DNA of 64,000 nt from an uncultured Mailhella sp. (GTDB taxonomy: Bacteria > Desulfobacterota > Desulfovibrionia > Desulfovibrionales > Desulfovibrionaceae), in assembly GCA_944324085.1 (NCBI GenBank), contig CALUUX010000036.1, forward strand, positions 32,779-96,778, read 5' to 3'. The notes beneath the pieces are model-generated. The model had not been told where the DNA came from. It made no database searches and was given only the letters and a program-made list of their open reading frames with translations. A program made the translations under genes and the position numbers. Shown in pieces: positions 41,247 to 44,983 of the stretch. Positions within the stretch are counted from its first letter, which is position 1. Every line of letters starts with the position of its first letter.

Positions 41247-42484
41247 GCGTGATCCTCCTCGTCGTCATCGCGCAGCGCGGCGGCCACGCTTTCCCGAAAT
41301 GTGGCGCGCAGGATCGCCAGTTTCGGATCGTCGGGATCGCTTTCCGGAAAGGCGTCCCGGAGACGTCGTTCAAAGACTTCTTCCACGCTGAGTTCTTCCA
41401 GATGCTCTTCTTCCGGATCGGCGTTCATGCCTTCGGTCAGAGAGCGGACGTTGCGTATGCGGAGAACTTCCAGACCTCCTTGAACGCGAGCTTCCACGCG
41501 CTCGCGCAGATCGGCGACGCGATCCTGACCGGTATGGACGACTTCCGCCCACACGCTTTCCCCGCTGGCGGCGAGTTCGTCAAGACGGCGTTCCACGGCG
41601 TCGATGTTGCCCTCCACGCGTTCCAGACGCTGGAAGGAAGGGACGCTCAGCCCGCGGGAGAGCACCCGGGAACCTTCCGTCGAGAGCAGGCGCACCTCGC
41701 GAGGCAGGCCCGCTTCGTCGAAGCCCATGGGAAGAGGAGAGCCGGAATATCGTATGCGCTCTTCGCCGTGAACTTTCTGCGCTCTGTGCAGGTGACCGAG
41801 GGCCACGTAGGCGAAGGTTGCGGGAAAAACATCCGCGTCCACCTGTCCGAGAGAGCCCACGCGGAGATCGCGCACGCCGTCATCTCCGCCGGTCATTCCT
41901 CCCGCCGCAAAAAGATGTCCCATGGCCAGCACAGGCAGATCGAGCCCTTTGCGCAGACGTTCCGCCTCCAGCGCGGCGCGGCGATAGTGTTCTCGCATGC
42001 CCTCGAGCATGCGTCTGTCCCGGTCGTCCATGTCGTCTCCGTCTCCGGCGCGGTAGAGATCTCTGTCCCTCAAGAAGGGCACAGCGCACACGATAAGTTC
42101 CGGTTGACCGTTAGGATCCCGAAGCAGCAGGGTTTCGTTTTCCGGCTCGCGCGCCTTGCCTATGACATGAATGTGCATGGAGGAGAGGAGCGTTCCTGGC
42201 GCGTCGAGAAAGGAGGGGGAATCATGATTGCCCGCGATGATCACGACATGGCGGCACGGCCCTGAGGGCAGCGTCGTCTGGCGCAGAAAGTCGTAATACA
42301 GCGATTGCGCGGCATTGCCTGGAAGCGCGCTGTCAAAAATGTCGCCGGAAAGAAGCAGTGCGTCGACCCTTTCTCGGCGCATGGCGTCAAGCAGCCAGGA
42401 GAGAAAGGCGCGAAACTCTTCGTGTCGACGCTTGCCGCAGAGGCTGTGTCCCAGATGCCAGTCGGAGGTATGGAGTATGATCAT
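41234..42484 (-). CDS. sbcD: SbcD (Mre11-like) nuclease subunit
   Basis: LHTSDWHLG, SGDIFD, AGNHDS, MGHLF, ALGHLH, RYSGSP. Confidence 0.95.
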   Translation of the reverse strand: MIILHTSDWHLGHSLCGKRRHEEFRAFLSWLLDAMRRERVDALLLSGDIFDSALPGNAAQSLYYDFLRQTTLPSGPCRHVVIIAGNHDSPSFLDAPGTLLSSMHIHVIGKAREPENETLLLRDPNGQPELIVCAVPFLRDRDLYRAGDGDDMDDRDRRMLEGMREHYRRAALEAERLRKGLDLPVLAMGHLFAAGGMTGGDDGVRDLRVGSLGQVDADVFPATFAYVALGHLHRAQKVHGEERIRYSGSPLPMGFDEAGLPREVRLLSTEGSRVLSRGLSVPSFQRLERVEGNIDAVERRLDELAASGESVWAEVVHTGQDRVADLRERVEARVQGGLEVLRIRNVRSLTEGMNADPEEEHLEELSVEEVFERRLRDAFPESDPDDPKLAILRATFRESVAAALRDDDEEDHACAF

Positions 42485-42944
42485 TCGCGGTCCTGTGTCA
42501 TGAAGTGGCGGCGTCCGCCGCAAAGAAGCCTTGACGCGGATCGCGCCGCACAACGCGAAAACGGCGTCAGGCGCATCGTTCCGTCACGAAGCGGCGATCG
42601 CGACGCATGAAGGCGCAAAGAGCAAGCGTCTTGTGGGATGTTTTCAGCTGTCTGAAAAGACGGGCTTGCCTCGGAAACGTCATGTCTGGCGGAAAAGATC
42701 GCGTGTTGGATATATCATGAGCCGGACGCGTCGTCATCTGAAAAGAAGGAGCGCCGCGCGGAGAGCGGCAAAGGAAAACGTCTTTATCGAAAAGGAGAGG
42801 AAGAAATACTTCGAGGGAGGAGAGCGGCCTGTTTCTGAAGAGTCGCGGCGTGTAGGAAGGCGGGAAGTGGGGCGATAAGACGATGGGCGACGAATGTCTT
42901 GGAAAATATGTTTCGAATGAAAGTCTCGATCGTGACGTTAATAT

Positions 42945-42975
42945 AAAAAAGCGGGAACTCCGAAGAAGCTCCCGC
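42945..42975 (-). terminator. Terminator closing the small-protein transcript
   Basis: On the minus strand, gcgggagcttc-ttc-ggagttcccgc followed by T6. Confidence 0.8.
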
Positions 42976-43014
42976 AAGCGAACGTGTTGATCCTGCTGAA
43001 CGCAGGTAAGAGAT

Positions 43015-43107
43015 TTACTTATAAGCCTTGGCGGCAAAAAGACCGAGGCAAACGACGACAGCCATAAGAACGGCGCAGATAGTGAGCACCAGACTTCCGA
43101 GTTCCAT
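43015..43107 (-). CDS. Small single-TM protein, 30 aa (not in the ORF track)
   Basis: MELGSLVLTICAVLMAVVVCLGLFAAKAYK*; perfect SD AAGGAGG 7 nt upstream (43115-43121); extended -10 TGcTATGTT at 43220-43228; own terminator. Confidence 0.75.
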   Translation of the reverse strand: MELGSLVLTICAVLMAVVVCLGLFAAKAYK

Positions 43108-43260
43108 ACAAAATCCTCCTTTATGTGATGGAAAACAACATTGCTCTCACGCGCGTTACGGGTATCGTTTATCACGAACAACAATATCATGCTCGTCGAT
43201 ACCTTTCTTGTTTTTTTAGAACATAGCAGGAGCAAGCGTTAAAAACAACTAATTTTTGAG

Positions 43261-43500
43261 ATATTTTTTTATTACTTTGGCTTATTTTTATAAATTCTAT
43301 TATTTTTTATAAATGTATAAACTTTGTTATAAATAAATGATATAAAAATTTTTATTTATATAAAAATATTATATGATATAAAAGTGATAATAATTTTTGA
43401 TGTATTATATTTATATATATAAAAATATATTATGATTAAATATTTTTTCTCTACTGAAAAATTAAATTAAATAATTTTTAATAAAATATATAATTTTATA
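43261..43500. other. Extremely AT-rich non-coding tract
   Basis: Hand count of 19 G+C in 240 nt (about 8% GC), flanked by GC-rich sequence. Confidence 0.95.
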
Positions 43501-43936
43501 ATATCATGGATAAAAATTATGTCTTAATTGTCACAAAATTTATGTAAGTGAGATTTTGAGTCCAAGAAAATGAAGATCGATTTGCGAAGGACGCGAGCAT
43601 AGGGGAGAAAAAACGCGAGTCAAGGAAGGCGTAGAGCGAGAAGCGGGACAAGCGTAACGTAAGAGCCGAAGTCGCGGTTTCCCTGAAAAGCAATGATGGA
43701 TGATGTTTCGCCGCGTCGGAGACTTGAGCGGATCTCTCATGTTCTTCTTTGTAAGATTTTGACGCGAAAATTCCGGGGCTTGCCATGCGCCGACAATAGG
43801 GTATCTTCTCCAGAAGGCGCAGGCCTTTTGCGGGCAGGGTCGGAGGGATCCGACCGAGTTTGGCGCGTTGTCCCGCCCCTTTGGCGGGGCTGTTCATACA
43901 AAGCGCATTTTCTGCGGAAGAAAACGGGAGTCATAC

Positions 43937-44983
43937 ATGGACGAGTTCCGCGTGCCCGATACCGGGCTTCATATTCTTATTCTCGGCTGCATGAGTTCGG
44001 GTAAATCCACGGTGCTCAATGCGCTTTTGGGCAGGGGCGTTTTTCCAGCCGGAAATAGAGCTACCACGGCGCAGGTATTTCGCATCATACACGATCCGTG
44101 GTGTAAGGAAAACGTATGCCGCAATCCTTCAGAAAGCGAGGATTGGCATCCGCTTACGCTGGAACGGCTCGCCTCGTACAACGGCTCCATGCGTGAGAAC
44201 GTTCCGGCCGATATCCGCCTCTGTCTGCCTCATCTGGAAAAGAAAAGAACCATCGTTTTCTACGATACGCCCGGCCCCAACACCAGCAAGCATGACGAAC
44301 ACCGCGGCGAAACGTATTTCGCGCTGGAGAAACTGCCGCTTACGCATATCTTTCTTGTGCTCGACATGGCGCAGCTGCATACGCGCGACGAAGAGGCTCT
44401 GCTTCAGGATATGGGCCGAGTGGCCGCGTTGCGAGGCGGCGTGCCCGTACTGGCGATCATCAACAAGGCCGACGTCATTGATGTGGAAAAGGAATCCGTG
44501 GCCGACATCGTGAAGGACGTGCGCGACACCGTGGCCCAGCATCTGCCCGAGGGGGCGAATGTGGACGTGATTCCGGTCATGGCCAAGGGCGCGGAAGTAT
44601 GGCGGCGCATGATAGATCGAGATCCGCTTACGGTGTTCGAGGTGGAGTTCGGTCAGTACATCGACTGGCGTTTGTGCGAAGCCATGCGCGACGCTTCCGT
44701 CATGCCCGAGGAGATACGCGTCAGCGTGGCGGAACAGATGGAGGAATGGCGCAGACTCCAGAAGTTTTCGCAGGCGTTCCGCTCCTCGCTGGAATATTTG
44801 GCCAGACGGGTGCATCCGGAAGCGGAACTTATCAATAAGAACGTGAGCAAGATTCTCGATTACGCCGATTGTCGTCGAGCCATTACCGGGTCGGGCATGG
44901 TCGCCCTTGAGGAGTACATCGATCGGCTCACCGTCAACCGCTATGCCGTCCCTCTGCGGGATGACTTAAAAGAAAGAGCCTGA
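43937..44983 (+). CDS. Bacterial dynamin-like GTPase (CrfC/RdcA-like)
   Basis: G1 GCMSSGKSTVLNALLG, G2 NRATT, G3 DTPGPN, G4 INKAD; SD GGAG. Confidence 0.8.
   Translation: MDEFRVPDTGLHILILGCMSSGKSTVLNALLGRGVFPAGNRATTAQVFRIIHDPWCKENVCRNPSESEDWHPLTLERLASYNGSMRENVPADIRLCLPHLEKKRTIVFYDTPGPNTSKHDEHRGETYFALEKLPLTHIFLVLDMAQLHTRDEEALLQDMGRVAALRGGVPVLAIINKADVIDVEKESVADIVKDVRDTVAQHLPEGANVDVIPVMAKGAEVWRRMIDRDPLTVFEVEFGQYIDWRLCEAMRDASVMPEEIRVSVAEQMEEWRRLQKFSQAFRSSLEYLARRVHPEAELINKNVSKILDYADCRRAITGSGMVALEEYIDRLTVNRYAVPLRDDLKERA

What the first reader, a model, noticed from the sequence alone, without database searches (positions are those of the whole stretch)
42945..43228. Hidden standalone transcription unit for a 30-aa membrane peptide with a structured leader
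Seen: extended -10 (43228-43220); a leader stem-bulge-stem ggtatcg-acgagca/tgttcgt-gataaa-cgatacc (43203-43161); perfect SD AAGGAGG; ORF MELGSLVLTICAVLMAVVVCLGLFAAKAYK (one TM helix, two Cys, basic C-terminus); a terminator 40 nt downstream. It is below the ORF-track cutoff. Established: this architecture fits type I toxins and small regulatory membrane proteins of the MgrB/AcrZ/KdpF kind. Inference: an unannotated toxin or modulator, possibly under riboswitch or antisense control.
Basis: partly seen in the sequence, partly recalled or inferred. Interest (0 to 1): 0.65.

Follow-up and report, generated by a model that had tools for sequence, protein, structure and literature searches.

The report
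Conserved 30-residue membrane peptide gene
A real, self-contained gene for a 30-amino-acid membrane-spanning peptide, conserved under purifying selection in the gut sulfate-reducer genus Mailhella, belongs to an unnamed family; its function is still unknown.

Summary
These are a TTGTTT-17-TGcTATGTT promoter, a leader hairpin, AAGGAGG 8 nt before the ATG, the 30-codon ORF and an intrinsic terminator.

The ORF is always 30 codons (31 in one clade) in at least 19 of 34 genomes of the genus. Titled records name the genus Mailhella. Mean pN/pS is 0.20, and 24 of 30 third codon positions vary against 20 of 60 first and second positions. In clades A-C it always lies between a dynamin-like GTPase gene and sbcDC.

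More distant 28-31 aa relatives stand alone in two other Desulfovibrionaceae genera. None matches Pfam or NCBIfam, and the one source name found is "hypothetical protein".

An AT-rich tract sits upstream (6-10% GC here). It is the most extreme of 35 such tracts in the genome and recurs in relatives.

The leader keeps its length and a hairpin but not its sequence. Rfam finds nothing, so a riboswitch is not supported.

Best reading: an abundantly expressed N-out/C-in small inner-membrane protein that acts through one conserved helix face. A type I toxin remains a live rival.

The parts
43249..43520 (-). AT-rich tract (6-13% GC) directly upstream of the -35 hexamer. A-tracts at about -40 to -46 and -52 to -60 resemble the proximal and distal UP-element subsites.
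   Evidence: Composition profile. A low-GC tract at -400 to -100 is present in all relatives. Conserved A-tracts show in the alignment. It is the longest and most extreme of 35 tracts below 20% GC in the genome. UP-element function is inferred.
43243..43248 (-). -35 hexamer TTGTTT (TTGTCA in clade B)
   Evidence: Conserved block TTGT(T/A)TTTAAC in the alignment. Clade B has the same layout.
43220..43228 (-). Extended -10, TGcTATGTT, 17 nt after the -35 hexamer
   Evidence: CCTGCTATGTTCT is nearly invariant in clade A. The full motif is unique in the genome.
43211..43217 (-). A7 run at the predicted transcription start (A7-A9 in clade A, A6 in clade B)
   Evidence: Invariant columns A1-A7 in alignment A2. 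Also seen. The start site itself is predicted, not measured.
43161..43203 (-). Leader hairpin P1 (stem-bulge-stem)
   Evidence: Folds. A long hairpin occupies the same place in 11 of 12 leaders with different sequences. All 12 leader z-scores are negative (-0.3 to -3.4).
43114..43135 (-). Weak anti-SD hairpin: UUUUCC (43135-43130) pairs with GGAGGA (43119-43114) across a 10-nt loop
   Evidence: The TCTTCC block is conserved. Stability is only -1.3 to -6 kcal/mol, and -2.6 here.
43116..43122 (-). Shine-Dalgarno AAGGAGG, 8 nt before the ATG
43015..43107 (-). ORF of 30 codons plus stop: MELGSLVLTICAVLMAVVVCLGLFAAKAYK
42992..43006 (-). Small 3' hairpin H1 (CCUGC/GCAGG), about 10 nt after the stop codon
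   Evidence: Present with differing stem sequences in all clade A relatives
42945..42975 (-). Intrinsic terminator: 11-bp stem, 3-nt loop, T6
   Evidence: Stem sequences differ between relatives while the helix and the U-run are kept.

Best explanation
This is a genuine, independently transcribed gene for a 30-residue integral inner-membrane protein.

The predicted sequence of events is as follows. A sigma-70-type promoter (TTGTTT, 17 nt, TGcTATGTT), backed by an AT-rich UP-like tract, starts a monocistronic mRNA of about 270 nt in a conserved A-run. A 5' hairpin of conserved position but free sequence most likely serves mRNA stability or processing rather than ligand sensing. A near-perfect, only weakly masked Shine-Dalgarno sequence drives efficient translation. 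Two 3' hairpins, the second an intrinsic terminator, end the transcript before sbcDC.

The peptide has an acidic N-terminus, a 21-residue hydrophobic helix and a basic KxYK tail. It should insert N-out/C-in. It most likely acts by packing one conserved helix face (positions 4, 7/8, 11/12, 14/15, 18/19, 21/22, 25, rich in Gly, Ala and Cys) against a transmembrane helix of a larger membrane protein, or against itself. That would make it an accessory or modulatory subunit in the manner of the stand-alone small membrane proteins of enterobacteria. The partner is unknown.

Shown: the coding status, the conservation, the anatomy and the synteny.

Inferred: promoter strength, start site, topology, and the helix-packing mode of action.
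For: Coding status:
- The ORF has the same length, start and stop in 14 distinct clade A sequences and has no indels, while the flanking UTRs carry many.
- Mean pN/pS is 0.20. Third codon positions vary at 24 of 30 sites against 20 of 60 at positions 1 and 2 (p = 4e-5).
- Clade B differs by one in-frame codon.

Family:
- 23 of 34 genomes of the genus have a hit, 19 of them strong.
- The family is unnamed in a 5.8-billion-protein collection and in 1.84 billion representatives.
- Stand-alone relatives of 28-31 aa, each with its own Shine-Dalgarno sequence and terminator, occur in two other genera.

Stand-alone unit:
- The promoter, A-run, Shine-Dalgarno sequence and terminator are conserved.
- In clade B sbcD has its own TGCTATA extended-10-like element.
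- Neighbours differ in other genera.

Non-toxic housekeeping character:
- The gene is single copy and in a syntenic core position.
- The Shine-Dalgarno sequence is masked by only -1.3 to -6 kcal/mol.

Helix-face conservation: periodicity peaks at 100 degrees, permutation p about 0.02.
Against:
- No partner can be named. Gene neighbourhood gives no clue, because the neighbours (sbcDC, a dynamin-like GTPase) are not membrane complexes and differ in other genera.
- Tandem duplicates in some relatives (G336, G164, G016) are also typical of type I toxin loci.
- The helix-face periodicity is modest evidence and fits a pore-forming oligomer equally well.
- Promoter strength and UP function are inferred from sequence only.
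Confidence: 0.55

Rival explanations
1. It is a type I toxin. The hydrophobic peptide would depolarise or permeabilise the inner membrane when made. Translation would normally be held off by an antisense or divergent small RNA, and by the leader structure.
For: - The size, the single hydrophobic helix and the basic C-terminus resemble TisB, ZorO and DinQ-type toxins (established knowledge).
- The leader of about 105 nt is structured and carries an anti-SD element.
- Tandem duplicated copies occur in G336, G164 and G016.
- The AT-rich tract upstream is full of promoter-like hexamers on both strands that could hide a small RNA gene.
- The conserved helix face would also fit an oligomeric pore.
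Against: - No match to any toxin model in NCBIfam, Pfam or PADLOC, even at E <= 10 for the first two.
- Single copy in this genome.
- Strict synteny and strong purifying selection across the genus.
- No conserved antisense promoter in or downstream of the ORF. The DNA downstream of the terminator is not conserved in clade A, and in clade B there is no room for one.
- The Shine-Dalgarno sequence is near-perfect and masked by only -1.3 to -6 kcal/mol, behind an extended -10 promoter. That is a risky design for a toxin.
Confidence: 0.2
2. It is a regulatory leader or dual-function RNA. The 270-nt transcript, or translation of its ORF, would control read-through into sbcDC or act in trans as a small RNA. 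The peptide would be secondary.
For: - The gene always lies upstream of sbcDC and in the same direction in clades A-C.
- In clades B and C only about 150-180 nt separate its stop from the sbcD ATG, with two hairpins in between.
- The A-run and the leader length are conserved.
Against: - The amino-acid sequence itself is under purifying selection, not just the act of translation.
- The terminator is strong, and sbcD has its own extended-10-like element in clade B.
- In clade A, 460-1200 nt of non-conserved DNA separate the two genes.
- Relatives in other genera, and clade D, are not next to sbcDC.
- The leader sequence is too variable for a conserved seed.
Confidence: 0.07
3. It is a chance ORF in a conserved non-coding element and makes no functional peptide.
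For: The ORF is very short, and no expression data are available.
Against: - The codon-position pattern of substitution and pN/pS of 0.20.
- Fixed start and stop, and no indels or in-frame indels only.
- A perfect Shine-Dalgarno sequence at optimal spacing in all members.
- Recognisable protein-level relatives at 33-47% identity in other clades and genera, where the DNA is no longer alignable.
Confidence: 0.03

Closest known systems
Stand-alone small inner-membrane regulators of enterobacteria (AcrZ, MgrB, MgtS, PmrR)
   Same: - One transmembrane helix and about 30-50 aa.
- Its own promoter and terminator, not inside the operon of a partner.
- Conserved within a narrow lineage.
- One conserved helix face, as expected for helix-helix packing.
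   Different: - No sequence similarity.
- No known regulator or regulon. The promoter motif is unique in the genome.
- Partner unknown.
- It comes from a different phylum (Desulfobacterota).
Type I toxins TisB, DinQ and ZorO (27-29 aa) and their small-RNA antitoxins
   Same: - Similar length and a single hydrophobic helix with a charged end.
- A leader of about 100 nt that can pair with the Shine-Dalgarno sequence.
- Occasional tandem duplication in relatives.
   Different: - No detectable antisense gene or conserved antisense promoter.
- The Shine-Dalgarno sequence is only weakly masked.
- The promoter looks strong.
- No LexA DNA-binding domain is found in the genome, so SOS control of the enterobacterial kind is unlikely.
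- No family match.
Operon-encoded small subunits KdpF (29 aa) and CydX (37 aa)
   Same: Size, and a single helix with N-out/C-in style charge distribution.
   Different: - Not encoded in or next to any transporter or oxidase operon.
- No match to the NCBIfam or Pfam models for these families.
SidA of Caulobacter (29-aa SOS-induced division inhibitor)
   Same: A membrane peptide of about 30 aa, encoded next to DNA-repair genes (here sbcDC).
   Different: - No sequence relation was tested or claimed.
- No canonical LexA is detected.
- Relatives in other genera are not near repair genes.
- This is only a resemblance from memory.

Membership tests
Type I toxin-antitoxin system | Small hydrophobic membrane peptide | tested here: met
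   30 aa, GRAVY 1.8, one 21-residue hydrophobic stretch
Type I toxin-antitoxin system | Cognate antisense or partly complementary small RNA encoded at the locus | tested here: inconclusive
   No conserved antisense promoter or conserved downstream DNA.
Type I toxin-antitoxin system | Sequence membership in a described toxin family (TisB, Ldr, Ibs, Hok, Fst, Zor, DinQ and others) | tested here: not met
   No NCBIfam or Pfam hit at E <= 10, and no PADLOC hit
Type I toxin-antitoxin system | Growth arrest or membrane depolarisation on expression | not testable with these tools
   Needs an experiment
Operon-encoded small subunits (KdpF, CydX) | Gene lies inside the operon of its complex | tested here: not met
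   Own promoter and terminator. The neighbours are sbcD/sbcC and a dynamin-like GTPase.
Operon-encoded small subunits (KdpF, CydX) | Match to the family model | tested here: not met
Stand-alone small membrane regulators (AcrZ/MgrB/MgtS kind; a functional class, not a homology family) | Independently transcribed gene for a single-pass protein of 50 aa or fewer | tested here: met
   Conserved promoter, Shine-Dalgarno sequence, ORF and terminator. Transcription itself is not measured.
Stand-alone small membrane regulators (AcrZ/MgrB/MgtS kind; a functional class, not a homology family) | Binds and modulates a larger membrane protein | not testable with these tools
   Only indirect evidence: one conserved helix face
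Riboswitch-controlled leader | Conserved aptamer with invariant unpaired nucleotides; match to a described family | tested here: not met
   No Rfam match at E <= 1 apart from a chance snoRNA hit on the other strand. The leader is about 50% identical, and only the A-run, the anti-SD element and the Shine-Dalgarno sequence are conserved. RNAalifold finds no consensus on the MAFFT alignment.
SOS-induced small membrane proteins (TisB, DinQ, SidA) | LexA operator in the promoter | tested here: inconclusive
   No PF01726 LexA DNA-binding domain in the 96%-complete genome. The operator of the local HTH-S24 repressor (GTCAA...TTGAC) is absent from the small-gene promoter.

The most novel reading that the evidence does not exclude
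The locus could be a new type I toxin or dual-function RNA system of gut sulfate reducers. The extreme AT-rich tract and the invariant A-run at the start site would then be parts of an unusual control device, for example reiterative transcription or silencing by a nucleoid protein. That device would gate a membrane-active peptide sitting next to the sbcDC repair genes.
Probability: 0.12. Interest if true: 0.6.

Novelty: new member of a known kind. Interest (0 to 1): 0.35.

Why it matters
Small membrane proteins are under-annotated, and almost none are known from sulfate-reducing bacteria of the gut. This family has a clear conservation signature and a compact, well-defined transcription unit. 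Its titled records are Mailhella species, and the metagenome contigs that carry it also point to the gut. That makes it a good candidate for tagging, deletion and partner pull-down.

It also gives a clean example of promoter architecture in this genus: an AT-rich upstream tract, TTGTnn, a 17-nt spacer, TGcTATnTT and an A-run. As it stands it is a solid annotation gain rather than a new biological principle.

Tried and rejected
- **Riboswitch or known RNA.** Rfam gave nothing.
- **Consensus leader structure.** RNAalifold on the MAFFT leader alignment gave no consensus. The hairpin is conserved in place, not in alignable sequence, so I relied on per-sequence folds and z-scores. I did not claim pair-by-pair covariation for P1.
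- **Known protein families.** Pfam, NCBIfam and PADLOC gave nothing.
- **Regulon search.** The promoter motif is unique in the genome.
- **Degenerate upstream copy.** 'GIFASKSYK' inside a 126-aa frame at about 43750 has hmmsearch E = 30 and no DNA similarity. I rejected it as chance.
- **AT tract as a replication origin.** There is no GC-skew switch in the window and no DnaA-box cluster, and 35 similar tracts exist in the genome. Rejected.
- **SOS control.** No LexA DNA-binding domain was found, and the operator of the local S24 repressor is absent from the promoter. Left open.
- **Leader peptide for sbcDC.** This is weakened by sbcD's own promoter-like element and by non-syntenic relatives.
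- **The 222-aa overlapping frame (42567-43235).** It runs through the terminator into non-conserved DNA. Rejected as a gene.
- **Lipoprotein or signal peptide.** There is no lipobox (LTIC and VVVC are not valid) and no basic n-region, from direct reading of the sequence.
- **Literature.** One search found no paper on small proteins of Desulfovibrionaceae.

Full report
**1. The observation**

On the minus strand I read the following elements.

| Element | Coordinates |
|---|---|
| -35 TTGTTT | 43248-43243 |
| Spacer | 17 nt |
| Extended -10 TGcTATGTT | 43228-43220 |
| A7 run | 43217-43211 |
| Leader hairpin ggtatcg-acgagca / tgttcgt-gataaa-cgatacc | 43203-43161 |
| Shine-Dalgarno AAGGAGG, 8 nt before the ATG | 43122-43116 |
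| ORF MELGSLVLTICAVLMAVVVCLGLFAAKAYK | 43107-43015 |
| Short hairpin H1 | 43006-42992 |
| Terminator: 11-bp stem, then T6 | 42975-42951, then 42950-42945 |

The hairpin is the core of the minimum-free-energy and centroid folds of the whole transcript.

**2. It is a real coding gene**

A DNA search of 40 relatives found the region in 10 other genomes of the same genus. The ORF was the best-conserved part. In each genome the frame has 30 codons with the same start and stop.

Fourteen distinct clade A coding sequences give these figures:
- mean pS 0.47 and mean pN 0.094, a ratio of 0.20;
- 24 of 30 third positions vary, against 11 of 30 first positions and 9 of 30 second positions (Fisher p = 4e-5).

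The ORF has no indels, while both UTRs have many.

Nine clusters of 30-aa proteins exist in the 5.8-billion-protein collection. Four come from NCBI assemblies and all nine are unnamed. A profile search of 1.84 billion representatives found only three true hits, all 30-31 aa. An exact look-up showed no names beyond 'hypothetical protein'. Pfam, NCBIfam and PADLOC give nothing.

**3. Distribution and family structure**

Record titles identify the genus as Mailhella, in the Desulfovibrionaceae. With a broadened profile, 23 of 34 genomes of the genus have a hit, 19 of them strong. Four clades appear.

| Clade | Sequence |
|---|---|
| A | MELGSLVLTICAVLMAVVVCLGLFAAKAYK |
| B | M(A)GLDSTVLTVVAGLFSIVIVVGFMATKIYK |
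| C | MELGTLVLCVVAGCFSFIACLWIYSVRTFR |
| D | MSLDATVLLTCLAFLALSVGLGLFGARLNK |

- Clades A-C all lie between a dynamin-like GTPase gene and sbcD-sbcC.
- Clade D sits elsewhere, behind a signal-anchored protein of about 130 aa with no Pfam match. The two-gene module is duplicated in tandem.
- Some apparent absences are assembly breaks. Many hits lie within a few hundred bases of contig ends. In G003, G010 and G019 I inferred from the truncated locus lengths that the contig stops just upstream of sbcD.
- Peptides of 28-31 aa with the same pattern occur in two other genera, for example MDLGLKVLLVCAAFMGLAIVLGYFGKKLSDD and MEMFPIMLIAGAFMLVSFVVGAYGVRKYN. Each has its own Shine-Dalgarno sequence and terminator, and their neighbours are unrelated.
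- The great majority of the 72 sampled genera of the family have no credible hit.
- The window's genome has one copy and no homologue of the 130-aa partner.
- The two cysteines are replaced by valine in clade B, so they are not essential.

**4. The transcription unit**

The block TTGT(T/A)TTTAAC - N6-7 - CCTGCTATGTTCT - A7-9 - CA is nearly invariant in clade A. Clade B keeps the same layout: TTGTCA, 17 nt, TGcTATTTT, 2 nt, A6. The full motif occurs once in the genome, so no regulon can be inferred.

Upstream lies a tract of 6-13% GC, in a genome of 59% GC. A low-GC tract at -400 to -100 is present in every relative. A-tracts lie at positions that fit the proximal and distal UP-element subsites (the function is inferred). 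The genome has 35 tracts below 20% GC. They lie upstream of diverse genes, and this one is the longest and most extreme. The tract is not an origin, because the GC skew shows no switch and there is no DnaA-box cluster.

The divergent GTPase gene has its own conserved promoter at 43780-43807 on the plus strand.

**5. The leader**

- From the -10 hexamer to the ATG it measures 111-115 nt in 15 of 16 clade A sequences. Sequence identity is low outside the A-run, a TCTTCC block and the Shine-Dalgarno sequence.
- Each leader folds into a long irregular hairpin at the same place. The arms differ between sub-clades (GGUAUC/GAUACC, GGCG/CGCC, GACAUCAUC/GAUGAUGUC).
- Fold z-scores are negative in all 12 leaders tested, from -0.3 to -3.4.
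- RNAalifold on the MAFFT alignment gave no consensus. I therefore claim conservation of a hairpin, not pair-wise covariation.
- The TCTTCC element can pair with GGAGGA across a 10-nt loop, but with only -1.3 to -6 kcal/mol.
- Rfam finds no family.

Together this argues against a riboswitch. It fits a stabilising or processing hairpin with mild translational damping.

Both 3' hairpins are kept, with different stem sequences, in all clade A relatives.

**6. Relation to sbcDC**

In clade A, 460-1200 nt of non-conserved DNA follow the terminator. In clades B and C the sbcD ATG lies 153-180 nt after the stop codon. In clade B a TGCTATA extended-10-like element sits about 25 nt before it. The small gene therefore looks independent, and a leader-peptide role is unlikely.

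**7. The peptide**

- GRAVY is 1.8. Residue 2 is acidic and the tail is basic (KxYK).
- By the positive-inside rule (established knowledge) the peptide should sit N-out/C-in.
- Conservation along the helix peaks at 100 degrees per residue (permutation p about 0.02). The conserved stripe runs 4, 7/8, 11/12, 14/15, 18/19, 21/22, 25 and is rich in Gly, Ala and Cys. That is what a helix-packing interface looks like.

**8. Verdict**

It is a true stand-alone small membrane-protein gene of an unnamed, lineage-restricted family.

Its mode of action is unknown. I favour a non-toxic accessory or modulator protein (about 0.55) over a type I toxin (about 0.2), for these reasons:
- single copy in this genome;
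- a core syntenic position;
- strong purifying selection;
- a strong-looking promoter with a barely masked Shine-Dalgarno sequence;
- no visible antisense partner.

The riboswitch idea is not supported. No LexA DNA-binding domain is present in the genome, so an SOS link through sbcDC could not be examined.

Noticed in passing
window 43240-43520: This tract of 6-13% GC sits in a 59% GC genome. It is the longest and most extreme of 35 tracts below 20% GC genome-wide, and those tracts lie upstream of diverse genes. A low-GC tract is kept at the same place in all relatives. Many MAG contigs end close to this locus. There is no GC-skew switch and no DnaA-box cluster, so it is not an origin.
   Followed up: partly
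window 43211-43217: An A7-A9 run lies exactly at the predicted transcription start. It is invariant across clades A and B although the rest of the leader diverges. Its role is unexplained: reiterative transcription, protein binding or 5'-end stability are all possible.
   Followed up: no
L073 5503-7118 (also L072, L074, L075, L046-L049): In other Mailhella species a related 30-aa peptide follows a signal-anchored protein of about 130 aa that ends in PYGxLPLPxxPPVLS and has no Pfam match. The two-gene module is duplicated in tandem, and the second peptide is 43 aa. The same 2.4-kb segment has different upstream flanks in different samples.
   Followed up: partly
G336 contig C135 9855-9944 and 10493-10582 (L037, L050): Two intact tandem copies of the small gene lie about 640 nt apart. 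Each has its own promoter, and their terminator regions are nearly identical. This points to recent duplication or gene conversion.
   Followed up: no
window 43780-43807 (+): A conserved TTGCCA-16-TATCTT promoter for the dynamin-like GTPase gene. The real start of that gene is probably the ATG at 43937 rather than the TTG at 43868.
   Followed up: partly
window 42484-42553: Homology with relatives suggests that sbcD starts at the ATG near 42484 (MIILHTSDWH), not at the TTG at 42553 that begins the longest ORF.
   Followed up: partly
window 42567-43235 (-): A 222-aa open frame overlaps the small gene in another frame and runs through the terminator into non-conserved DNA. It is almost certainly spurious, but a gene caller could pick it and mask the real 30-aa gene.
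   Followed up: partly
whole genome G000: No LexA DNA-binding domain (PF01726) was detected in this 96%-complete genome, although the control genomes score. The HTH-S24 repressor at about 12.4-13.5 kb of the window may stand in for it.
   Followed up: no
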